From a virus (taxonomy: Duplodnaviria; Heunggongvirae; Uroviricota; Caudoviricetes), in the IMG/VR virus record IMGVR_UViG_3300025162_000035: DNA of 19,963 nt. One strand, 5' to 3'. Positions 3,829 through 19,963 of the stretch are shown piece by piece (within the stretch, counting starts at the first letter, position 1; the number at the start of each line of letters is the position of its first letter). The position numbers were made by a program, and so were the translations under genes. The notes beneath the pieces are model-generated. The model was not told the DNA's origin. It worked only from the letters and a program-made list of their open reading frames with translations, and searched no databases.

Positions 3829-4273
3829 ATGATAAAGAAATTCAAAATATTTGAAAATCGTGATCGGTCTGAAGAAGTCCTATTAGGTCAAATTGTATTT
3901 AAATTTGATGAATTGAGAACTACTGGATTTTTTAATTGATCATATTATTCGCAAGTTTGATTTGAATTGGTACAATTGCTTAAAAACAAAGGATTCCCCA
4001 AAAATAGAATATGGTGATTATATATATTATGATGGGTTTGTTAATCCTAAAGTAATCAAAAATGTTGAAGCAACCTTTCAGGGTGTTAAGTTCAAAAGAT
4101 TGAACGTTAATCTTAAGAGTAGCTTTAATTATACATTTCAAGATGATGAAGGATATTACATAAGCAAGGACGTAAATATTCCAATATCAATGTTAAAAAG
4201 TTATTGGGATTCATTTCAAATGTATAAGATCGATGTCACCAATTATTTTAATTATCAAAAGTTCGATCTTTAA
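3829..4273 (+). pseudogene. MIKKFKIFE.../...KFDL family gene split by a +1 frameshift near 3916-3934
   Basis: Frame 1 MIKKFKIFEN...KFDEL stops at 3937; frame 2 is open from 3917 (ELLDFLIDHIIRKFDLNWY...QKFDL). Confidence 0.6.
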
Positions 4274-4285
4274 TCAGTTACTTAT

Positions 4286-4357
4286 GGCGAGGTAGTTCAG
4301 AGGCAGAACAGTTGAATCATAATCAACAAGTCGGGATTTCGAAATTCCCTCTCGCTA
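4286..4357 (+). tRNA. tRNA with CAU anticodon (elongator Met or Ile2)
   Basis: Acceptor GGCGAGG/TCTCGCT, GTTGA-ATCATAA-TCAAC; lacks initiator GGG/CCC stem. Confidence 0.88.
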
Positions 4358-4521
4358 CAAATTAGAAAGTTCATATCAAATATAATAAAAAAATTAAAAT
4401 TGAATAAATGCAGAACGGCAGTATGCGGTTGTGTGCAGCGGGGATCGTGACCCTAACCGTCAACAGTTCGACTCTGAACGGGCATGGTTAGCAATATCAC
4501 AACTTTACTCAGTTTTTTCAT

Positions 4522-4594
4522 GGGCTCTTAGTATAATTGGTTAGTATAGGTCCCTGATAAGGATCAGACCTTGGATCATTCCCAAGAGAGCCTA
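4522..4594 (+). tRNA. trnI: tRNA-Ile(GAU)
   Basis: Acceptor GGGCTCT/AGAGCCT, GGTCC-CTGATAA-GGATC, T-loop ATCATTC. Confidence 0.85.
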
Positions 4595-4604
4595 CTTCCC
4601 AAAT

Positions 4605-4681
4605 CCAGATGTATCCGCTCACTCTTATAAGGTGTAGAAACGGTAATTGGTCACATGAAGGTTCGATGCCTTCCATCTGGA
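4605..4681 (+). tRNA. Rearranged tRNA, Ile(UAU) anticodon, no conventional D arm
   Basis: Acceptor CCAGATG/CATCTGG, CACT-CTTATAA-GGTG, T arm GAAGG-TTCGATG-CCTTC; AATTGG D-loop motif lies 3' of the anticodon arm. Confidence 0.72.
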
Positions 4682-4686
4682 CAAAT

Positions 4687-4759
4687 GGTCGGTTAGGATA
4701 ATAGGTGAGTCTGCATGCCTTATAAGCAAGCGATGGGGGTTCAAAGCCCTCACCGACTA
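4687..4759 (+). tRNA. trnI: tRNA-Ile(UAU)
   Basis: Acceptor GGTCGGT/ACCGACT, loop CTTATAA, T arm GGGGG-TTCAAAG-CCCTC. Confidence 0.85.
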
Positions 4760-5788
4760 CAAAGAAACACAGGTTGTTGGTTTACAATTATTATAAAATT
4801 TTTCATTCATACTTTTATTATATTGAAAAGAAATATAATCATTTTCTTCACAGTATTTTTCTAATGATTCTTTTTTGGGTATAATTGTTTTATAATAATA
4901 ATCCCATTTCCTTTGTAAATCTTTATTAGATATTATTGTCTTACATTCAACAATATAAATTCCTTGTGTTGTTGTTATTTTGAAATCTGGGTTATATTTT
5001 TTGGTTATACCATCAATTACAAAATTTATTAAAAAATTACATCTTTCTATATTTAAAACTACAAAATTTTTCTCAAAGTAATTCAAACAACTATATTCAA
5101 CTTTAGAATCACATCTTATTAATTTATCCTTGTATTTATAGCGGCATTTTATACTTTTTAATTTTGGTTTAAATATGCCATCTTTTATTTTATTGCTCAC
5201 AAGTTTAGATAAATTTTCTTTTATTTCTTTTGTCATTGAACCTTTTGATGCACAACTAACACTACAATATTTTTGTTTATTTCTTCTTACCCATTTAGAT
5301 TTGTATTCTTTATGACAGTATTCACAATTTTTTTCAACATATTTTGGATTTGTGTTTTTTATAGTCTTTATTTTAATTTTTTTATTTTCAAATCTTTTTT
5401 TAGATGCACAACTAACACTACAAAATTTCCTATGCCTGACACTCCATTTTAATTCAAATTCTGAATTACAATATAGACACACTTTTTTAATTGTATCTGG
5501 TAAGCCTTTTTTTAAAGTGATTCTAATTTTATTTTTTGTTTTTTCTGGCATTTTTTTATTTTTATTAGTTTTTGATGCAGAACAAGACATCGAACAAAAA
5601 GTATTCCTTCTTTTATCATATTCAATTATATTTGAACAATTTAAACATAATTTTGGTTTTTTATTATAAATATCTATTCTATTTTTTTTAAGAACTTTTA
5701 TTTTCTCTAAAGATTTTTGGTTAGCCTTTTTATTATTTTCGAAAATTTTACCAGATTTATAATAATCCGAATTTTTAATACTTGCCAT
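4757..5788 (-). CDS. Putative free-standing endonuclease: three Cys4 Zn-binding repeats plus C-terminal TnsA-like PD-(D/E)XK domain
   Basis: Three CxxC...F/YCSxSC repeats; C-terminal RCDSKVE...YNPDFKI...YIVECK. Confidence 0.7.
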   Translation of the reverse strand: MASIKNSDYYKSGKIFENNKKANQKSLEKIKVLKKNRIDIYNKKPKLCLNCSNIIEYDKRRNTFCSMSCSASKTNKNKKMPEKTKNKIRITLKKGLPDTIKKVCLYCNSEFELKWSVRHRKFCSVSCASKKRFENKKIKIKTIKNTNPKYVEKNCEYCHKEYKSKWVRRNKQKYCSVSCASKGSMTKEIKENLSKLVSNKIKDGIFKPKLKSIKCRYKYKDKLIRCDSKVEYSCLNYFEKNFVVLNIERCNFLINFVIDGITKKYNPDFKITTTQGIYIVECKTIISNKDLQRKWDYYYKTIIPKKESLEKYCEENDYISFQYNKSMNEKFYNNCKPTTCVSL

Positions 5789-7029: not shown

Positions 7030-7141
7030 GGGATTATAGTTTAATGCACCTATAACGGGATTCCAAAAAAGATGAAAGGGGTGTAGGTAGAATTCTGGGG
7101 CGCATAACCCAGCGATATGGGTTCGAGTCCCATTGCTCCCG
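7030..7141 (+). tRNA. Atypical CAU-containing (initiator-like) tRNA with enlarged D loop
   Basis: Acceptor GGGATTA/TGCTCCC (6/7), CTGGG-GCGCATAA-CCCAG, T arm ATGGG-TTCGAGT-CCCAT, ~47-nt D-loop region. Confidence 0.55.
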
Positions 7142-7186: not shown

Positions 7187-7933
7187 TTAGTTTTGTAATA
7201 CCCAGAAGTCATAAGCAAGACCTTTGGTGAAGTAAGTGTATGGTAAATAAAAATATCCATGATCACCCCAGCTTGCGCCCCAAGAATTTCGGCACACAAA
7301 CCATTTCTTATCATCATTATAACCGATTATAAGGACAGCATGACCACCTAAAAGTTGTTCACTTTTTTTTGGTAGTGGAACTTTGCCAGTTTTTGCTACT
7401 GCGGCTGATTCAAATGATTCATAAACATCCATCCCAGTTAAAACTGGTTTTTGTTGAAGAACCAAAACTTGTTTAATTTGATCCTGAGTTGCTACTGAAA
7501 TATATGATTTTATTTTATATTTCAAAGCATTTGTAACGGCAGCGTTTGTTGGGGTAACAGCAAATTTTGTGATATCATATGGGAAATAAGACTCTTCACA
7601 GATACCATAAGTTTGCATTGCTTTACCAATGTCCCTCATTTGTGCTCCACCGTCTTGAGAAATGTCACCTTCAATCTTTCTTTCTTCGAAATATTGAAAA
7701 AGACGAGAAAGATTAACTGTTAATTTATTTAGCATCACTCGTGCAGCAACACCAGCGTTAGCAGTGCAGCTACCCAATTGTCCTTGGTCATATACAAGTG
7801 GGCATTGTGCAATTAGAGTGAATATTTTGGGTATTGTAATTTTAACTGAAGGGTGTATATCTAACACGGATTTTAATTGAAGGTCCCTTTCATCTGGGGT
7901 TTGCTTCTTTAAATTATATATGTGGTTTGCCAT
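7187..7933 (-). CDS. Papain-like cysteine peptidase (C1 family)
   Basis: DQGQLGSCTANA (Gln, Cys), GGHAVLIIGY (His), RNSWG (Asn); start reassigned to MANH at 7933. Confidence 0.92.
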   Translation of the reverse strand: MANHIYNLKKQTPDERDLQLKSVLDIHPSVKITIPKIFTLIAQCPLVYDQGQLGSCTANAGVAARVMLNKLTVNLSRLFQYFEERKIEGDISQDGGAQMRDIGKAMQTYGICEESYFPYDITKFAVTPTNAAVTNALKYKIKSYISVATQDQIKQVLVLQQKPVLTGMDVYESFESAAVAKTGKVPLPKKSEQLLGGHAVLIIGYNDDKKWFVCRNSWGASWGDHGYFYLPYTYFTKGLAYDFWVLQN

Positions 7934-7962
7934 AGTTTTTTTTTTTATTGTATATATTAATT

Positions 7963-7970
7963 TACCTTTG
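7963..7970 (+). promoter_or_regulatory. Bacteroidota-type -7 promoter element TAnnTTTG
   Basis: TACCTTTG ending 17 nt upstream of ATG 7987. Confidence 0.45.
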
Positions 7971-7986
7971 TACAAAATGTGAATTT

Positions 7987-9060: not shown

Positions 9061-9085
9061 TTTTTTTATTTTAATATATATGTTC

Positions 9086-9649
9086 ATGAAGTATATTAAA
9101 ATGTTTGAAGAAATGAAATCGTGGGATATTGCTAAGTATTTCGAAGAGTTGAGAGATGCGATGACTGCTGGCAAATTGGATAAAGTAAATAGTATTATTT
9201 TTGAAGCCCCTGACGTTGTTTTTTGGCAAGATAATGATAATAGTGCTGGATGGACAGCTCTTATGTGGGGGGTGGCTGACCACACTGACACAAAAGTTGA
9301 CATAATCAAAGTCTTAATTAATGCTGGGTCTAATGTTAATGCTACTGATAATTTTGGATGCACTGCTTTAATTCATGCCGCAACTATTGATTTAGATAGA
9401 TCAACTGATAAACATCAAGCCTTAGGACAAACTAAAGAAATTCTTAAATTGTTATTAGATTCTGGTGCTAATCCATATATTAAAGATTTTGAACCAGATG
9501 AGGATGAAAAATATTATGTAAATTATACAGGCGGAGAGGATTGGTATGATCATGCGACTCCAGATATTAAACAATGGATTGAAGAAAATTGCCCAGAGTT
9601 TTGGGCAAAGAAGAGACGTGAATTGGCTCAGAAAAGGTTTGATTTATAA
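9086..9649 (+). CDS. Ankyrin-repeat protein with MKYIKMFEE/KRFDL termini
   Basis: GWTALMWG...IIKVLINAGSNVNATDNFGCTALIHAA...ILKLLLDSGANPYIKD. Confidence 0.9.
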   Translation: MKYIKMFEEMKSWDIAKYFEELRDAMTAGKLDKVNSIIFEAPDVVFWQDNDNSAGWTALMWGVADHTDTKVDIIKVLINAGSNVNATDNFGCTALIHAATIDLDRSTDKHQALGQTKEILKLLLDSGANPYIKDFEPDEDEKYYVNYTGGEDWYDHATPDIKQWIEENCPEFWAKKRRELAQKRFDL

Positions 9650-12866: not shown

Positions 12867-12943
12867 GCCTCACTATTGGCCCAGTTTTCGAAACTGGAGA
12901 CGCATAACGGATGAAAATGTGGGTTCGAATCCCTCGTGAGGTA
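12867..12943 (+). ncRNA. tRNA-like element with replaced D/anticodon region
   Basis: Acceptor GCCTCAC/GTGAGGT, T-loop TTCGAAT; centre is hairpin CCAGTTT-TCG-AAACTGG plus a poorly paired CGCATAAC. Confidence 0.55.
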
Positions 12944-12952
12944 CAAATAAAT

Positions 12953-13027
12953 GCGCTCGTAGCTCAATTGGATAAGAGTTTAGGTTTGCGAAATCTAAAG
13001 ATGTGAGTTCAAGTCTCACCGAGCGTA
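12953..13027 (+). tRNA. trnR: tRNA-Arg(GCG)
   Basis: Acceptor GCGCTCG/CGAGCGT, TAGGT-TTGCGAA-ATCTA, T arm GTGAG-TTCAAGT-CTCAC. Confidence 0.88.
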
Positions 13028-13084
13028 CAAATCAACTTCCAAGATTTTTTTTTCCATTTTCTTTTTTTTTATCCATTTTACTGT

Positions 13085-13115: not shown

Positions 13116-14666
13116 ATGAAAACTATCAAAACCTCTAATAAAATATATTGGGCTCCATCTGATTTTTTGGAAGTGCTAAATAAGTTGAATTCGTCTCCAA
13201 CATCCTCATTAACTGCCAACAATAAATCAACCGATGGATTAAATATTGATGAAATTACAGGTAAGAAAATCATGATTCTTCATCGTTGTGTTAAAGAGGG
13301 GTCTAATACAACATTGAGATTAAAAGAAATAGCAGACAATATATTATCAGGAAAATGGGATCGTCACCCATTTCGTCAACGACCATTCACTTGGAAAGAT
13401 TCGAGGCAAATTCCATTTATTACAACTCTTTTAAAAAATTGCATTAAAAGTAGTACTAATGGATCAATGGCTATTGCTCCTATCTTTATCACCAAAAACA
13501 TTGAAGATAAAACTTACGTGGATGACGGATGGCAAAGGAGTAGTACTATACATCGGTTTGTGTATGGAAATCTTGAAATAAAGGGATATGATGCAGCATG
13601 GATTATTGGATTTTTCATTTTTCAGTTTATTGAATGTGCCAATAATGAATATCACCCAAACAGAAAATATTTTGTTGATACTCTGAAAAACCTTCATGCT
13701 GGGAATTTCAAAAAATTGGTCATTACGTATAAAAATCTTCCAGAATCGGTAAAAAATGAGTTTGATGATTTAGTAATGTCTGTACGTCATTTAATCATTG
13801 AGACAAGTACTTATGATTTTGAAACTGGTAAGATAACAATACGTCAGCAAGATTTAACAACAGAAAGCCCATTATGGGAGTGGTTTGTGAATGTTCAATT
13901 AGGTCAGGAAGCTATGACTAAGAAAGATGTTATCATGGCAATTCAAAATGATATCAATTATAAAACAATTGATATCAGTTATGATTTATCTACATTCTTT
14001 TTCAAAGATTCATATCAAGGACGAATGATAAATCAATCATTAATAGAAGCCTTATTATGTGTAACTGGAAAGGCTGCTATGAATAACACAAAGCAATCAA
14101 TCGATTATTTGAATAAGAACAGATTTCATGACTCCAAAAGTCCTGAGATGTTATTACTTCAAAAATTAGATTGGAATGTAAGATTGTTTTATAAAAACCA
14201 TTCAAATAGATTCAACGATTGCAAATTTAAAATGTCGCTAACTGATCTTAAATTTTATTGGTATTTATTATTATCTAATTGGGATAAATTATATTCAACT
14301 AACGGTGATGTTAGATTCCCTTTTACTTATAGTAATGAAATAAATAAAAATTATTTCAAATTTTTAGAAGTTTTAAGAGATATATCAGGTATTATCAGTA
14401 AAATAAGAAATGTTTATGATTCTAAATTGGGAAAGAAACCGTCCCAAAAAGAAATTAATGAAGTTTATGAATATGCTCTAACAATTGGTGACGATAAATT
14501 AAAGATGTTTACTATTACATATTTGACATCCTTGGTTGATTTTGCATCATTAACAAGAAATACTAAAAAGTTTTCAGCTTTTTTAAAAAATGAGGATGTG
14601 AAATTAAAAATCGATAAGATTATAGATTGTATTATTGAGCACTATAAATTTAAAAGAATAAATTAA
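13116..14666 (+). CDS. DUF262-like (ParB/sulfiredoxin fold) domain protein
   Basis: HPFRQRPFTW...FITTLLK...APIFI...YVDDGWQRSSTIHRF resembles the DUF262 QRxYxW...DGQQRxTT signature. Confidence 0.65.
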   Translation: MKTIKTSNKIYWAPSDFLEVLNKLNSSPTSSLTANNKSTDGLNIDEITGKKIMILHRCVKEGSNTTLRLKEIADNILSGKWDRHPFRQRPFTWKDSRQIPFITTLLKNCIKSSTNGSMAIAPIFITKNIEDKTYVDDGWQRSSTIHRFVYGNLEIKGYDAAWIIGFFIFQFIECANNEYHPNRKYFVDTLKNLHAGNFKKLVITYKNLPESVKNEFDDLVMSVRHLIIETSTYDFETGKITIRQQDLTTESPLWEWFVNVQLGQEAMTKKDVIMAIQNDINYKTIDISYDLSTFFFKDSYQGRMINQSLIEALLCVTGKAAMNNTKQSIDYLNKNRFHDSKSPEMLLLQKLDWNVRLFYKNHSNRFNDCKFKMSLTDLKFYWYLLLSNWDKLYSTNGDVRFPFTYSNEINKNYFKFLEVLRDISGIISKIRNVYDSKLGKKPSQKEINEVYEYALTIGDDKLKMFTITYLTSLVDFASLTRNTKKFSAFLKNEDVKLKIDKIIDCIIEHYKFKRIN

Positions 14667-16964: not shown

Positions 16965-17630
16965 ATGATTCTTAAATTAACATTATCCAAAAATACTAAA
17001 ATCGTACCTTTCAATTATGCTATTCTGATTAGAGGTAAACGCCAAGGGTGGCTTGGAAACCAAGATAGGAATAAAATATCGTTATTTACATTTTCTAATA
17101 TATTAGGTGGAATATCAACTCCAAATGGATACAATTTTCCAAATGGTGGTGAAATTTATTTCGGTTATCACGATAAAACAGATATTATAAATATTATTTT
17201 AGCCATAGTAAAAAATAATAATTTTATTTGTGGCATGAAAATTATAAATTTTATTCCTGTAAATTATAATTCAATAACTACGGATGATTTTATCTGTTTA
17301 TCCCCAATTCATTTAGCAAAAAAATCAATTGGTTGGAATTCAAAAAATATACCAGTAACATATAAACATCCAGATAGTAATGTAATATTACAGGATACGA
17401 TGATACGAAAAATGCAAGCTGCTGGTGTTAATAGCAATTATTTTGACATTCAGTTTGATTTATCGGATAATACAAAATATATTAGCTCTATTTCTTATGA
17501 CGATAAAATAATAAAATATAGTGTTTGCTCACTTATCATAAAGGGTACCTCTCAGCAAAAGGAATTTTGTGTGAATGCGGGTGTTGGAAAATCAACAGGA
17601 ATGGGATTTGGATGTGTTTTACCTAAATAA
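16965..17630 (+). CDS. cas6: CRISPR-associated endoribonuclease Cas6
   Basis: C-terminal glycine-rich loop AGVGKSTGMGFGCV; LFTFSNI motif; 221 aa. Confidence 0.88.
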   Translation: MILKLTLSKNTKIVPFNYAILIRGKRQGWLGNQDRNKISLFTFSNILGGISTPNGYNFPNGGEIYFGYHDKTDIINIILAIVKNNNFICGMKIINFIPVNYNSITTDDFICLSPIHLAKKSIGWNSKNIPVTYKHPDSNVILQDTMIRKMQAAGVNSNYFDIQFDLSDNTKYISSISYDDKIIKYSVCSLIIKGTSQQKEFCVNAGVGKSTGMGFGCVLPK

Positions 17631-17639
17631 TTAAAAATT

Positions 17640-18218
17640 ATGTTTGTAGTAGTTTATAAAGGACCGTTTGGATTTATTAAGCCATATGACACTAATCGTG
17701 ATGATTATATCAAAAGTCAGAATTTTCTTTTACCGTCTGCCGTTAAGGGGATAGAATTATATTTATTTCCAGAACTATTAAAAGATAAGACACATATTCT
17801 CAAAAAGATTGTAAGATGTAAAATTAATTTTGATAATATAGTCAAAGATTTGGGAGTAATACAAAGCCCACTTGTTAAAAGAGTAAGTAAAAGGGCTACC
17901 GATAAAATGCATAGTTTTATATTAGCTACCAGTTGTATTGAGCGTGGACTTTTACACAATGTTACTGTATATGTCGGGTTTAATAATATGGATGATGCAT
18001 TAATAGCGTCAAGCAGTCATATTAGAATTAGTGGAAAAGATGAAACTTGTTACCCATCTGGTGACCGAGCTATTGAAATTTCGGATGATGAATTTGATAA
18101 AATAAGCGGGTGGGAATTTAAAGAAACAAGTCAGGATGATCCAAATTCTATTTTAGTTGGTAATAATCGATATAAAAACAATGAAAAAATATATGGAAAA
18201 ATTATCCATACTAAATAA
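17640..18218 (+). CDS. cas5: Cas5-like RAMP protein
   Basis: N-terminal VVYKGPFGFIKP and SQNFLLPSAVKGI resemble the Cas5 N-terminus; lies between cas6 and cas3. Confidence 0.62.
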   Translation: MFVVVYKGPFGFIKPYDTNRDDYIKSQNFLLPSAVKGIELYLFPELLKDKTHILKKIVRCKINFDNIVKDLGVIQSPLVKRVSKRATDKMHSFILATSCIERGLLHNVTVYVGFNNMDDALIASSSHIRISGKDETCYPSGDRAIEISDDEFDKISGWEFKETSQDDPNSILVGNNRYKNNEKIYGKIIHTK

Positions 18219-19963
18219 TATCAGGGCAAAAGGATTGCCTACAAATACTTCTTTATATCAGCATTTACATGATGCTAAAGAATTTATGAAAATTCTGGTG
18301 GAAAATTTAGATTCCACCTTTAATTTTGATTTATCCATATGTATAATAGCTGCTATATTACATGATATTGGAAAGGCTCATCCAGAATTTCAATTTAGGT
18401 TGGATAAACCATACAATCCAGATTGGAATCCGTTTAGGCATGAAATATCATCAATCCTATTCATATCGCTTTTTGATAAAAAGAATTGGGATACTATTAT
18501 AGATATGATCATAGCCCATCATAAATCTATTTATGTAAGAAGCGGCTCAAACATTGGAAGTTTTCACAAAGGAATCTTAACATTACACGACAATTTTGGT
18601 GATGATGTTTTTAATATGCATTGTGGAACCAAAGAAATGTGGGATGTGTGGTCAAAGGATGCGTTAGAAATATTATCTCATTTGGGAATATCAGTTAGAA
18701 ATATATCGTATGATGAAGCCAGACAAAATTATAATTATGTGTTAGATTATTGTCAAAAAATAAAAGATGATAATATTTGTGAAGTATCATATGATAGAGG
18801 ATTAATGAATGCTGCTGATTATATATCATCACATATTGATCAATCAAGAGGAAAAATAAATGAATTGATTGAAAAAATGTTTGTTGTTCCAGATTTTAGT
18901 TTTTATGAAAATCGGAAGAATAAAATGTATCCTTTTTCAATGATGGATATAAATAAAAAAAAGAAAAGAAAGCATACTATTATTATTGGTCCAACAAGTT
19001 CAGGAAAGACGGATATGCTCTCCAGATGTTGTAAAAAACGTGTTTTTTATATTCTTCCATTTCAGGCATCTATTAATGCCATGTATAATAGATTTCGGGC
19101 TGATCTGAATAACCCAGAAAATAAAAATTTAGCCATATCTTTATTACATGCAAATGCACAAAGTGTCTTAAATAACAATAATGATATATCGAGCCACGTA
19201 TTAAAAAATAAAATAGGTTGTGGGCTAAAGGTCTTAACACCTTATCAAATTTCAAAAATTCTTATTGGAGGAACAGGTTATGAGCAATTAATTTTAGATT
19301 TAGCTGGGCAAGATGTAATTATGGATGAAAATCAATGCTATAATGAAAGATCGAAGCCATTTATTTTAACTTTAGTTAAAGCTCTCGATAAGATTGGTTG
19401 CAATATTCATTTTGGTACTGCAACTATGCCTTCGGACTTAAAAAAGAAAATATTGAAGATTTTAGGACGTAACAACGTTGATGTAATAGAATTATCAAGA
19501 AAACAAAAAGCTGAATTTGACAGGCATATTGTATATAAAAGAAATTCTTTTGATGATTGTACGGATGCTATTAATGATGCGGTTTTACAAAATAAAAAAG
19601 TTTTAGTTGTTGCTAATACAATCGATGAATCTATACGTTTATATAAAATATTGAAAAGTAGATATTCAGATAAAAATAAGGTTCTTTTACACAGCCGATT
19701 TAAGCGAAAAAATCGAAATTATAAAGAAACGTTATTGTTCGATAAATCTTTTTTAGCGAATGGCTGTATAGTTGTTTCAACTCAAGTTGTGGAAGTAAGC
19801 TTGGATATAGATTTTGACGTTCTTTTTACTTATTGCTGTCCCTTGGATAGTTTACTACAGCGAATGGGTAGAATAAACAGAAGGCGTGGATTTAACAAAA
19901 TTTGCCCAGTTTATGTCATAAATGTGTATGATACTCCAGCAAAAGAAATGGTTGGTGGGTATA
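18193..19963 (+). CDS. cas3: Cas3 HD nuclease-SF2 helicase, 3' truncated by window edge
   Basis: Read manually (absent from ORF track): YQH, LHDIGK, RHE, AHH, AAD; GPTSSGKT, MDENQ, TATMP, LHSRF, STQVVEVSLDID, QRMGRINR; no stop through base 19963. Confidence 0.92.
   Translation, partial: MEKLSILNNIRAKGLPTNTSLYQHLHDAKEFMKILVENLDSTFNFDLSICIIAAILHDIGKAHPEFQFRLDKPYNPDWNPFRHEISSILFISLFDKKNWDTIIDMIIAHHKSIYVRSGSNIGSFHKGILTLHDNFGDDVFNMHCGTKEMWDVWSKDALEILSHLGISVRNISYDEARQNYNYVLDYCQKIKDDNICEVSYDRGLMNAADYISSHIDQSRGKINELIEKMFVVPDFSFYENRKNKMYPFSMMDINKKKKRKHTIIIGPTSSGKTDMLSRCCKKRVFYILPFQASINAMYNRFRADLNNPENKNLAISLLHANAQSVLNNNNDISSHVLKNKIGCGLKVLTPYQISKILIGGTGYEQLILDLAGQDVIMDENQCYNERSKPFILTLVKALDKIGCNIHFGTATMPSDLKKKILKILGRNNVDVIELSRKQKAEFDRHIVYKRNSFDDCTDAINDAVLQNKKVLVVANTIDESIRLYKILKSRYSDKNKVLLHSRFKRKNRNYKETLLFDKSFLANGCIVVSTQVVEVSLDIDFDVLFTYCCPLDSLLQRMGRINRRRGFNKICPVYVINVYDTPAKEMVGGY

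What the first reader, a model, noticed from the sequence alone, without database searches (positions are those of the whole stretch)
4605..4681. Topologically rearranged tRNA-Ile(UAU): D-loop motif moved 3' of the anticodon arm
Seen: perfect acceptor and T arms, but only 8 nt (TATCCGCT) between acceptor and anticodon stem. After the anticodon arm, CGG (4641-4643) can pair with CCG (4615-4617), followed by AATTGG, the usual D-loop A14..G18G19 signature. Inference: the L-shape is rebuilt with different connectivity, which could evade enzymes that recognise normal tRNA topology. It lies 5 nt from a conventional tRNA with the same anticodon. Similar rearranged tRNAs may already be reported from metagenomes, so novelty needs checking.
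Basis: partly seen in the sequence, partly recalled or inferred. Interest (0 to 1): 0.78.

Follow-up and report, generated by a model that had tools for sequence, protein, structure and literature searches.

The report
Phage isoleucine tRNA with rewired core
This 77-base gene in a lake phage's tRNA row is an intact member of a widespread, phage-only class of transfer RNAs whose D-loop segment lies after the anticodon arm instead of before it; gene finders miss the class and I could not find it described.

Summary
Window 4605-4681 (+) has a perfect 7-bp acceptor stem and a perfect 5-bp T arm. It has a CUUAUAA anticodon loop and no D arm ahead of it. A CCG/CGG helix brackets the anticodon arm and is followed by UAAUUGG.

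It is not a one-off. I found 26 distinct UAU versions in viral contigs. The displaced helix is paired in all of them, with double changes at all three pairs. A model built only from arginine-type relatives in other phages finds the window copy at 74 bits. ARAGORN and the Rfam tRNA model both miss it.

Members carry only isoleucine-box (GAU, UAU, CAU) or arginine (UCU, CCU, UCG, ACG) anticodons. The base after the relocated GG follows the anticodon:
- A in all 100 distinct arginine types. A20 is the bacterial ArgRS determinant.
- U in 25 of 26 UAU types.

So the relocated motif behaves as a real D loop. The best reading is a working tRNA-Ile for AUA, but charging and decoding are inferred, not shown.

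The class is nearly absent from cellular genomes. It is present, mostly unannotated, in cultured Streptomyces, Bacteroides, E. coli, Salmonella and Klebsiella phages.

This scan has met the class before on other DNA (e1-3277210, e1-1621372, e1-467666 and others). I found no published description.

The parts
4605..4611 (+). Acceptor stem, 5' strand (CCAGAUG)
   Evidence: Pairs 7/7 with 4674-4680. All 7 pairs covary across the family.
4612..4614 (+). Linker UAU. U8 and A9 are invariant; the third base is U in 25 of 26.
   Evidence: Invariant columns in alignment A1; linker tally.
4615..4617 (+). Displaced helix, 5' strand (CCG). It sits where the 3' strand of a D stem would lie, running straight into the anticodon stem.
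   Evidence: Pairs with 4641-4643. 100% paired in 26 sequences, with double changes at all 3 pairs.
4618..4637 (+). Extended anticodon arm. It has two outer pairs (C4618-G4637, U4619-A4636), a bulged U4635, a 4-bp stem (CACU 4620-4623 with GGUG 4631-4634) and the loop CUUAUAA at 4624-4630.
   Evidence: The inner stem is 100% paired with covariation. The two outer pairs are 73% paired.
4626..4628 (+). Anticodon UAU (reads AUA, isoleucine), with U33 before it and A37 A38 after it
   Evidence: Sequence. Sister members of the same body carry GAU or CAU.
4638..4640 (+). AAA bulge between the anticodon arm and the 3' strand of the displaced helix
   Evidence: Conserved as AAA in the 76-77-nt members and replaced by about 10 nt in the 82-nt members.
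4641..4643 (+). Displaced helix, 3' strand (CGG). It sits where the 5' strand of a D stem would lie.
   Evidence: columns 43-45.
4644..4656 (+). Relocated D-loop segment and connector, UAAUUGG-U-CACAU. Proposed equivalents: A14, A15, G18, G19, U20 and U48.
   Evidence: T40, A41, T43, T44, G45, G46, A51 and T52 are invariant. The base after GG is U in 25 of 26 Ile types and A in 100 of 100 Arg types.
4657..4673 (+). T arm: 5-bp stem GAAGG/CCUUC with loop UUCGAUG
   Evidence: 100% paired, 3 pairs covary.
4674..4681 (+). Acceptor stem 3' strand (CAUCUGG) and discriminator A. No CCA is encoded (next bases are CAAAT).
   Evidence: The discriminator is A in 26 of 26 UAU members.
4522..4595 (+). Conventional tRNA-Ile(GAU), 9 nt upstream on the same strand
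   Evidence: ARAGORN; Rfam tRNA 52.1 bits.
4687..4760 (+). Conventional tRNA-Ile(UAU), 5 nt downstream on the same strand
   Evidence: ARAGORN; Rfam tRNA 52.3 bits.
12867..12943 (+). Second, more divergent core-rearranged tRNA of the window. It has anticodon UCG (Arg) and A after the relocated GG, and lies 9 nt before tRNA-Arg(GCG).
   Evidence: R1 38.4 bits; R2 52.1 bits, E 6e-13; Rfam tRNA only 30.5 bits; not called by ARAGORN.

Best explanation
Window 4605-4681 is a gene for a working elongator tRNA-Ile with anticodon UAU. It belongs to a phage-restricted class whose core is threaded differently from the cloverleaf.

The strand leaves the acceptor stem through U8-A9-U and enters a continuous long helix: 3 bp of displaced D-stem analogue, 2 bp, then a 4-bp anticodon stem. 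After the anticodon arm and an AAA bulge it returns as the other strand of the 3-bp helix. Only then does it form the D-loop segment (A14 A15 .. G18 G19 U20) and run through CACAU into the T arm.

Inferred: G18/G19 still dock on the T loop, so the elbow and the overall L-shape are kept. About ten stacked layers lie between the anticodon loop and the elbow, as in a cloverleaf.

The proposed life cycle, also inferred, is:
- The RNA is cut out of the phage's tRNA-array transcript by RNase P and 3' processing.
- It receives CCA.
- It is charged by the host's IleRS, which reads the anticodon, A37/A38, A73 and U20.
- It reads AUA, which makes up 40% of the isoleucine codons in this 31% GC window.

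Shown here: the anatomy, the conservation, the covariation, the isotype-specific determinants and the phage-only distribution. Expression, charging and decoding are all inferred.
For: 1. Anatomy as described.

2. Family. 35 viral contigs (26 distinct sequences) have the same layout. The structure is 96.5% paired, against 64.6% in shuffles and 38-48% when partners are slid. The displaced helix is 100% paired, with pair types CG24/AU2, GC10/CG8/UA7/UG1 and CG13/GC11/AU1/UA1.

3. Independent detection. Model R2 was built only from arginine-type members of other phages. It scores the window copy 74.3 bits (E 2e-19). The best conventional tRNA in the window scores 28.3 bits.

4. The anticodon varies only within two amino-acid families. 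I saw GAU, UAU and CAU, and UCU, CCU, UCG and ACG. Scans for other anticodon classes found no member.

5. Identity elements follow the anticodon, although the search patterns did not fix them.
- The base after the relocated GG is A in 87 of 87 UCU members and in 12 of 12 co-located CCU/ACG/UCG members. It is U in 25 of 26 UAU members, in the GAU member and in the listed CAU members.
- The discriminator is A in 26 of 26 UAU members and A or G in 81 of 87 UCU members.
- PMC9976931 Table 1 lists A20, C35 and A/G73 as bacterial Arg determinants, and A73, U20, A35, U36, A37 and A38 among the bacterial Ile determinants.

6. Members sit in tRNA arrays on the same strand with tRNA-like spacers of 2-14 nt in 16 of 35 loci. 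Examples are L119 (2 and 4 nt), L158, L027 and L170.

7. Of the 20 UAU-member loci with at least 5 tRNAs, only the window also has a separate conventional tRNA-Ile(UAU) in the fetched stretch. In L063 the rearranged UAU and CCU genes supply anticodons that the 20 conventional tRNAs lack.

8. Codon demand. AUA is 180 of 455 Ile codons in the window's ORFs.
Against: - There is no evidence of transcription, processing, aminoacylation or decoding for this copy. Only DNA runs hold the window stretch.
- In this window the gene is redundant with a conventional tRNA-Ile(UAU) 5 nt away, so it could be dispensable here.
- The window is rich in tRNA-shaped RNAs that earlier notes of this scan read as non-decoding mimics.
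- Minor E. coli IleRS determinants (C4-G69, C29-G41, U12-A23) are not present in the window copy.
- The MFE z-score alone is unremarkable.
- The three-dimensional fold is argued by analogy only.
Confidence: 0.72

Rival explanations
1. It is a conserved tRNA mimic that is processed like a tRNA but is not used in decoding. For example, it could be a decoy or sponge for a host anticodon nuclease, a modification enzyme or IleRS, displaying an AUA-type anticodon arm on an altered body.
For: - The same window carries several tRNA-shaped RNAs that earlier notes of this scan read as YrlA- or Y-RNA-like mimics.
- A conventional tRNA-Ile(UAU) lies 5 nt away, so decoding capacity is already present.
- The core is non-canonical and fails the Rfam tRNA model.
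Against: - The acceptor stem, discriminator, T arm and 7-nt anticodon loop are all kept open and intact.
- Synthetase determinants outside the anticodon arm co-vary with the anticodon: A20 with Arg anticodons in 100 of 100, U20 and A73 with Ile anticodons. A nuclease decoy would not need this.
- In most other arrays the rearranged gene is the only carrier of its anticodon in the fetched stretch.
Confidence: 0.15
2. The class is functional elsewhere, but this particular copy is a redundant duplicate on its way to loss, made dispensable by the conventional tRNA-Ile(UAU) next to it.
For: Of the 20 UAU-member loci with at least 5 tRNAs, the window is the only one where a conventional UAU tRNA was also seen in the fetched stretch.
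Against: - The copy has no defect. All 21 modelled pairs are standard and every invariant family position is kept.
- It scores 92.9 bits with R1 and 74.3 bits with the independent R2.
- It is identical in contigs of four runs from four studies.
- AUA is a heavily used codon here, so two copies are plausible.
Confidence: 0.05
3. The transcript is cut and re-joined after transcription, as in permuted or split tRNA genes, so that the mature RNA is an ordinary cloverleaf.
For: Swapping the two internal blocks (CCG + anticodon arm + AAA, and CGG + UAAUUGGUCACAU) would give a cloverleaf with a 3-bp D stem and a 3-nt variable loop. This can be read from the sequence.
Against: - No bulge-helix-bulge or other splice motif is present.
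- The 5' and 3' ends are already in normal order.
- Two cuts and two ligations would be needed, and no such pathway is known in bacteria or phages (my own knowledge).
- The helix covaries as expected for a structure that functions as encoded.
Confidence: 0.02
4. It is a working tRNA but is charged with an amino acid other than isoleucine, so that AUA is recoded or misread.
For: - The altered core removes the D stem that some synthetases and editing steps read.
- Phages of the same collections also carry UAU anticodons on long-variable-arm bodies.
Against: - The same body carries GAU, UAU and CAU, which are exactly the isoleucine box.
- It keeps A73, A37, A38 and U20.
- When the anticodon is an Arg one, position 20 switches to the ArgRS determinant.
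Confidence: 0.04

Closest known systems
Canonical bacterial and phage tRNA-Ile reading AUA (Rfam RF00005), such as the neighbouring gene at window 4687-4760
   Same: It shares the 7-bp acceptor stem, A73, the 5-bp T arm with its UUCRA loop, a 7-nt anticodon loop with U33, anticodon UAU and A37 A38, and a GG elbow motif. It also shares the placement in a phage tRNA array, with tRNA-like spacers.
   Different: - It has no D hairpin between position 9 and the anticodon arm.
- The two D-stem strands bracket the anticodon arm, and the D-loop segment lies where the variable loop should be.
- The Rfam tRNA model gives no hit even at E 10, and ARAGORN does not call it.
D-arm-lacking mitochondrial tRNAs, such as metazoan mt-tRNA-Ser(AGY), and the engineered D-armless 'mini HisT' (PMC11551756)
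   Same: There is no D hairpin at the usual place, yet the molecule is (or is proposed to be) accepted by the translation machinery. PMC11551756 shows that E. coli HisRS, EF-Tu and the ribosome accept a D-armless tRNA.
   Different: Here the D-stem pairing and the G18G19 loop motif are kept but re-threaded, the length is normal (77 nt), and the carriers are phages of bacteria. Mitochondrial D-armless tRNAs replace the arm by a short loop (PMC7609411).
Permuted and split tRNA genes (Cyanidioschyzon merolae permuted genes, Nanoarchaeum split genes)
   Same: The order of tRNA segments in the gene differs from the cloverleaf order.
   Different: In those genes whole halves are swapped or separated, and processing restores a normal cloverleaf. 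Here the 5' and 3' ends are in normal order, only internal segments are swapped, and the covariation fits the RNA functioning as encoded. This comparison rests on my own knowledge of those systems.
YrlA / Y-RNA tRNA-like modules (Rfam RF02553), reported by earlier notes for other RNAs of this same window
   Same: They are tRNA-shaped RNAs encoded in phage tRNA arrays.
   Different: YrlA-type mimics have a closed acceptor end and lack an anticodon loop (as summarised). This RNA has open, perfectly paired termini, a discriminator and a standard anticodon loop. No Rfam family other than chance-level hits matched it.
Allo-tRNAs (8/4 or 9/3 acceptor/T stems, long variable arm; PMC7609411)
   Same: They are non-canonical bacterial-world tRNAs found by metagenome mining, and UAU is among their commonest anticodons.
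   Different: This RNA has the standard 7/5 acceptor/T geometry, no long variable arm and a re-threaded D region. Allo-tRNAs keep a D arm in the normal place.

Membership tests
Canonical tRNA (Rfam RF00005, cloverleaf) | 7-bp acceptor stem with an unpaired discriminator | tested here: met
   4605-4611 pairs with 4674-4680 at 7 of 7 positions, and the discriminator is A4681.
Canonical tRNA (Rfam RF00005, cloverleaf) | 5-bp T stem with a 7-nt UUCRANN loop | tested here: met
   GAAGG-UUCGAUG-CCUUC at 4657-4673.
Canonical tRNA (Rfam RF00005, cloverleaf) | 7-nt anticodon loop with U33 and a purine at 37 | tested here: met
   CUUAUAA at 4624-4630.
Canonical tRNA (Rfam RF00005, cloverleaf) | D stem-loop between position 9 and the anticodon arm | tested here: not met
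   Only 8 nt separate the acceptor stem from the anticodon stem. The D-stem analogue brackets the anticodon arm.
Canonical tRNA (Rfam RF00005, cloverleaf) | Score at or above the Rfam gathering threshold (29 bits) | tested here: not met
   No RF00005 hit on 4605-4681, even at E up to 10. ARAGORN does not call it either.
Canonical tRNA (Rfam RF00005, cloverleaf) | Aminoacylation and use in translation | not testable with these tools
   There are only indirect signs: determinants A73, A37, A38 and U20 are kept, and position 20 switches with the anticodon across the class.
Core-rearranged phage tRNA class (defined here by models R1 and R2) | Layout: acceptor, U-A-N linker, 3-bp helix around the anticodon arm, UAAYUGG after the helix, then the T arm | tested here: met
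   R1 scores it 92.9 bits (though it was a training member). R2, built without it, scores it 74.3 bits, E 2e-19.
Core-rearranged phage tRNA class (defined here by models R1 and R2) | Covariation in the displaced helix | tested here: met
   100% paired with double changes at 3 of 3 pairs in A1. 91% paired with double changes at 3 of 3 pairs in the independent A2.
Core-rearranged phage tRNA class (defined here by models R1 and R2) | Isoleucine-type signature: NAU anticodon, U after GG, A73 | tested here: met
   Anticodon UAU, U4651 and A4681.
D-armless mitochondrial-type tRNA | D arm replaced by a short unpaired loop, with the G18G19 elbow motif lost | tested here: not met
   The helix CCG/CGG and an invariant UAAUUGG motif are retained.
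Permuted tRNA gene | 3' half encoded upstream of the 5' half, so the termini of the mature tRNA are internal to the gene | tested here: not met
   The acceptor strands are at the two ends of the gene in normal order.
YrlA / Y-RNA tRNA-like module (RF02553) | Match to the Rfam model; closed acceptor end and no anticodon loop | tested here: not met
   No such hit at E up to 10. The termini are open and an anticodon loop is present.

The most novel reading that the evidence does not exclude
The re-threaded core is an adaptation, not a neutral oddity. On this reading it lets phage Ile and Arg tRNAs keep working with RNase P, IleRS/ArgRS, EF-Tu and the ribosome. At the same time they escape something that reads the normal D arm: host tRNA-cutting or tRNA-modifying defences, or the phage's own attack on host tRNAs.

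If so, this is a natural, widespread second architecture for a decoding tRNA in the bacterial world. It would also be a ready-made scaffold for orthogonal tRNAs.
Probability: 0.3. Interest if true: 0.92.

Novelty: new variant of a known kind. Interest (0 to 1): 0.8.

Why it matters
The cloverleaf is one of the most constant shapes in biology. A 2024 paper states that all known bacterial tRNAs adopt it (PMC11551756 abstract).

A conserved, covarying class in which the D-loop segment and the anticodon arm have changed places would show that the bacterial translation machinery naturally accepts another threading of the L-shape. In this class the synthetase determinants still track the anticodon.

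The class also means that tRNA counts for many phages are too low, including well-studied Felix O1-like, rV5-like and crAss-like phages. Their AUA, AGA and AGG decoders go unannotated or are labelled 'tRNA-OTHER', 'tRNA-Leu' or 'hypothetical protein'.

Because cultured E. coli, Salmonella, Klebsiella, Streptomyces and Bacteroides phages carry members, charging, modification and structure can be tested directly.

Tried and rejected
Searches that found nothing useful:
- No whole genome is held for the window.
- blastn of 4250-4800 against the phage records matched only the tRNA-Met part.
- An exact 29-mer from the element had no match in viral contigs.
- Neighbouring proteins (343 aa and 288 aa) had no relatives in viral contigs. 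The one contig on record that encodes the 343-aa protein had no DNA file.
- The promoter and terminator scan of 3900-5000 was at background.
- The MFE z-score of -1.45 says nothing by itself.

RNA evidence:
- Only DNA runs hold the window stretch.
- RNA-seq runs do hold the stretch of an arginine-type relative.

Other anticodon classes on this body:
- With G or U as the middle base there were 9 pattern matches and no class member.
- NAA, NAC, NCA and NCC gave 18 matches and no member.
- These scans required a CU...AA loop context and the TAAYTGG...AT...GGTTC motif. NAG and NCG anticodons had no scan of their own.

Readings considered and rejected: a chance hairpin, an assembly artefact, a decayed pseudogene, a permuted gene that is re-joined, and YrlA-type mimicry (see rivals and membership tests).

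Literature: eight full-text searches and two reviews gave no description of this layout. Subscription-only papers are not covered.

Full report
**Observation.**

- A 7-bp acceptor stem (4605-4611 with 4674-4680) and discriminator A4681.
- A perfect T arm (4657-4673, loop UUCGAUG).
- Eight bases (UAUCCGCU) between the acceptor stem and the anticodon stem.
- The loop CUUAUAA (4624-4630, anticodon UAU).
- CCG (4615-4617), complementary to CGG (4641-4643).
- UAAUUGG directly after that (4644-4650).

ARAGORN finds 14 tRNAs in the window. Among them are tRNA-Ile(GAU) at 4522-4595 and tRNA-Ile(UAU) at 4687-4760, but nothing at 4605-4681. The Rfam tRNA model does not match it either, at the gathering score or at E up to 10.

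RNAfold gives one long nested helix, CCG/CGG + CU/AG + CACU/GGUG, around the anticodon loop. Its z-score of -1.45 is unremarkable.

**It is a family.**

I scanned IMG/VR with a pattern that asks only for CTTATAA, then AWTTGG, then GGTTCRA in that non-canonical order.
- 35 loci (26 distinct sequences, the window included) have a perfect acceptor stem and T arm, with exactly 12 nt between the acceptor strand and the anticodon loop. That is the same layout as the window.
- In their alignment (A1) the proposed structure is 96.5% paired. Shuffles give 64.6%, and sliding the 3' partners gives 38-48%.
- The displaced 3-bp helix is paired in every sequence and changes on both sides at all three pairs: CG24/AU2; GC10/CG8/UA7/UG1; CG13/GC11/AU1/UA1.

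**Relatives with other anticodons, and an independent model.**

A covariance model of A1 (R1) found further copies in the same viral loci. Their anticodons are CCU, UCU and UCG, and one is a second copy in the window itself at 12867-12943.

It gave 87 distinct sequences with the 12-nt spacing. R1 then picked up co-located members with CCU (5), ACG (5), UCG (2) and GAU (1). In that arginine-type alignment the displaced helix is 91% paired, with double changes at all three pairs.

A model built only from those arginine-type sequences (R2) contains no window sequence. It scores window 4605-4681 at 74.3 bits (E 2e-19) and 12867-12943 at 52.1 bits. The best conventional tRNA of the window reaches 28.3 bits.

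**Anticodon census.**

I used patterns that fix the relocated motif but vary the anticodon:
- Middle base G or U gave 9 matches, none a class member.
- NAA, NAC, NCA and NCC gave 18 matches, none a member.
- CAU gave 19 matches, and all 19 are members at 78-87 bits.

Cultured-phage and MAG copies carry GAU. The class as seen here therefore carries GAU, UAU and CAU (the isoleucine box; CAU could be Ile2 or Met) and UCU, CCU, UCG and ACG (arginine).

**The relocated motif behaves as a D loop.**

The base right after the relocated GG was not fixed by any pattern.
- It is A in 87 of 87 UCU members and in all 12 co-located CCU/ACG/UCG members.
- It is U in 25 of 26 UAU members, in the GAU member and in the listed CAU members.
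- The discriminator is A in 26 of 26 UAU members, and A or G in 81 of 87 UCU members.

The identity review PMC9976931 lists A20, C35, U/G36 and A/G73 as the bacterial arginine set. It lists A73, U20(D20), A35, U36, A37 and A38 among the bacterial isoleucine set.

So a nucleotide in the displaced segment switches with the anticodon exactly as position 20 of a real D loop should. This is hard to explain unless these RNAs are substrates of ArgRS and IleRS.

**Distribution.**

An any-anticodon pattern over one genome from each of 185,579 prokaryote species gave 49 matches, of which only 3 are class members. All three lie on large MAG contigs (147-363 kb), two of them inside dense tRNA arrays, as in huge phages.

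In GenBank phage records:
- The Ile type occurs in about 40 Streptomyces phages (NootNoot, Samisti12 and others) and in the crAss-like Kehishuvirus 'tikkala'. It is almost always unannotated, and once labelled 'tRNA-Leu'.
- One arginine-type query matches 269 records: Felixounavirus, rV5-like, 121Q-like, Klebsiella and Proteus phages. These are mostly unannotated or labelled 'tRNA-OTHER', 'tRNA-Leu' or 'hypothetical protein'.

**Context.**

The window has 31% GC and carries Cas6 and Cas3-like genes, which fits a huge phage. Its stretch 4500-4780 is identical in contigs of four freshwater or lake runs from four studies.

The element sits 9 nt after tRNA-Ile(GAU) and 5 nt before tRNA-Ile(UAU), on the same strand. 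Elsewhere members fill tRNA-sized slots with spacers of 2-14 nt in 16 of 35 loci.

ARAGORN calls only 6 of the 35 UAU members. Of the 20 loci with at least 5 tRNAs, only the window has a separate conventional tRNA-Ile(UAU) in the fetched stretch. In L063 the rearranged UAU and CCU genes supply anticodons missing from 20 conventional tRNAs.

AUA is 40% of the Ile codons in the window's ORFs, and AGA is 50% of the Arg codons.

**How it most likely works (inference from the anatomy).**

In a cloverleaf, the D stem stacks under the anticodon stem. One continuous strand runs 22-25, 26, 27-31. The opposite side is made of 39-43, 44-45 and, not covalently joined, 10-13.

In this RNA the proposed equivalents are:
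- The continuous strand is CCG-CU-CACU (4615-4623).
- The opposite side is GGUG-(U)-AG-AAA-CGG (4631-4643), now covalently continuous.
- CGG therefore stands for the 5' D-stem strand and is followed, in the normal order, by A14 A15 N N G18 G19 U20.
- The invariant A-U before the T stem fits 48 as the Levitt partner of A15.

Counting 4 + 2 + 3 base pairs plus the flanking U10/U40 gives about ten layers, as in the 5 + 1 + 4 layers of a cloverleaf. The anticodon-to-elbow distance can therefore be kept.

An internal tandem duplication of the D-arm-plus-anticodon-arm block, followed by two deletions, would produce exactly this order. That is speculation.

Processing by RNase P and 3' nucleases, CCA addition (none is encoded), charging by IleRS and reading of AUA are all inferred.

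**Rivals.**

- A non-decoding mimic is the main rival (0.15). The window is full of tRNA-like RNAs, and this copy is redundant with its neighbour. Set against that, a decoy has no need for synthetase determinants that track the anticodon.
- A dying duplicate (0.05) is contradicted by the flawless sequence.
- Post-transcriptional re-ordering (0.02) has no motif or known pathway.
- Charging with another amino acid (0.04) is contradicted by the restriction of this body to the Ile box.

**Comparison and novelty.**

It works like an ordinary tRNA-Ile but fails two defining features of the cloverleaf family: the D hairpin in its place, and the RF00005 threshold. It is not a D-armless mitochondrial type, because the helix and GG motif are kept. 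It is not a permuted gene, because the termini are in normal order. It is not a YrlA-type mimic or an allo-tRNA.

Eight full-text searches and two reviews gave no description. [quoted passage not shown]

Earlier follow-ups of this same scan reached the same reading on other genomes. I reproduced their main claims independently and list them separately.

I rate it a new variant of a known kind. The molecule is a tRNA, but its threading is new.

Noticed in passing
window 12867-12943 (+): A second, more divergent core-rearranged tRNA with anticodon UCG (Arg) and A after the relocated GG. It lies 9 nt before a conventional tRNA-Arg(GCG) at 12953-13028. R2 scores it 52.1 bits and Rfam tRNA only 30.5 bits, and ARAGORN misses it. 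Its displaced helix (UGG/GCA) pairs at only 2 of 3 positions, as in a subfamily of 12 UCU members.
   Followed up: partly
L108, L009, L012, L015, L017 and others (e.g. L039:948-1040); also L102, L018, L019, L026: Two other viral tRNA(UAU) families were caught by the first pattern. They have a normal D arm plus a variable region of about 23 nt with a UAGAUUUGGG motif (90-94 nt in all, and ARAGORN calls them tRNA-Ile(tat)). A UAU anticodon on a long-variable-arm body is unusual in the bacterial world and recalls the nematode nev-tRNAs.
   Followed up: no
L318-L336 (e.g. L331:11047-11123 -): These are core-rearranged members with anticodon CAU, U after GG and A73. They are either tRNA-Ile2 (which TilS would then have to accept on this body) or tRNA-Met.
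   Followed up: partly
L329:3904-5165 and L234:1601-8694: Single phage arrays hold four to six rearranged tRNAs. L234 covers UCU, CCU, ACG and UCG. L329 also has divergent copies with the loops CUUAUAC and CUGAUAA.
   Followed up: no
L171:1953-2564 (Streptomyces phage NootNoot); L337:601-1200 (Klebsiella phage Roth37): In the Streptomyces phages the rearranged tRNA-Ile(GAU) directly follows a nucleotidyltransferase gene. In Roth37 the rearranged tRNA-Arg is directly followed by an HNH endonuclease gene.
   Followed up: no
window 16965-19962 (+), 13116-14666 (+), 7187-7975 (-), 9080-9649 (+): These are the Pfam hits among the protein genes of the window. Cas6 (PF01881) and a Cas3-like HD-helicase lie at the 3' end. 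There is also a weak GmrSD N-terminal domain match, a papain-family protease and an ankyrin-repeat protein.
   Followed up: no
window 7030-7141 (+): A 112-nt Rfam tRNA hit (32.1 bits) that ARAGORN does not call.
   Followed up: no
window 4359-4521 (+): A 163-nt unannotated gap lies inside the tRNA row, between tRNA(CAU) and tRNA-Ile(GAU). It contains a GTTCGACTC T-loop-like motif. No model matched it.
   Followed up: no
loose ends at 4608-4667: The same lake samples hold short contigs from other phages that match only the inner part of the element (2-5 differences) and have unlike flanks. Other members of the class therefore co-occur in the habitat.
   Followed up: no
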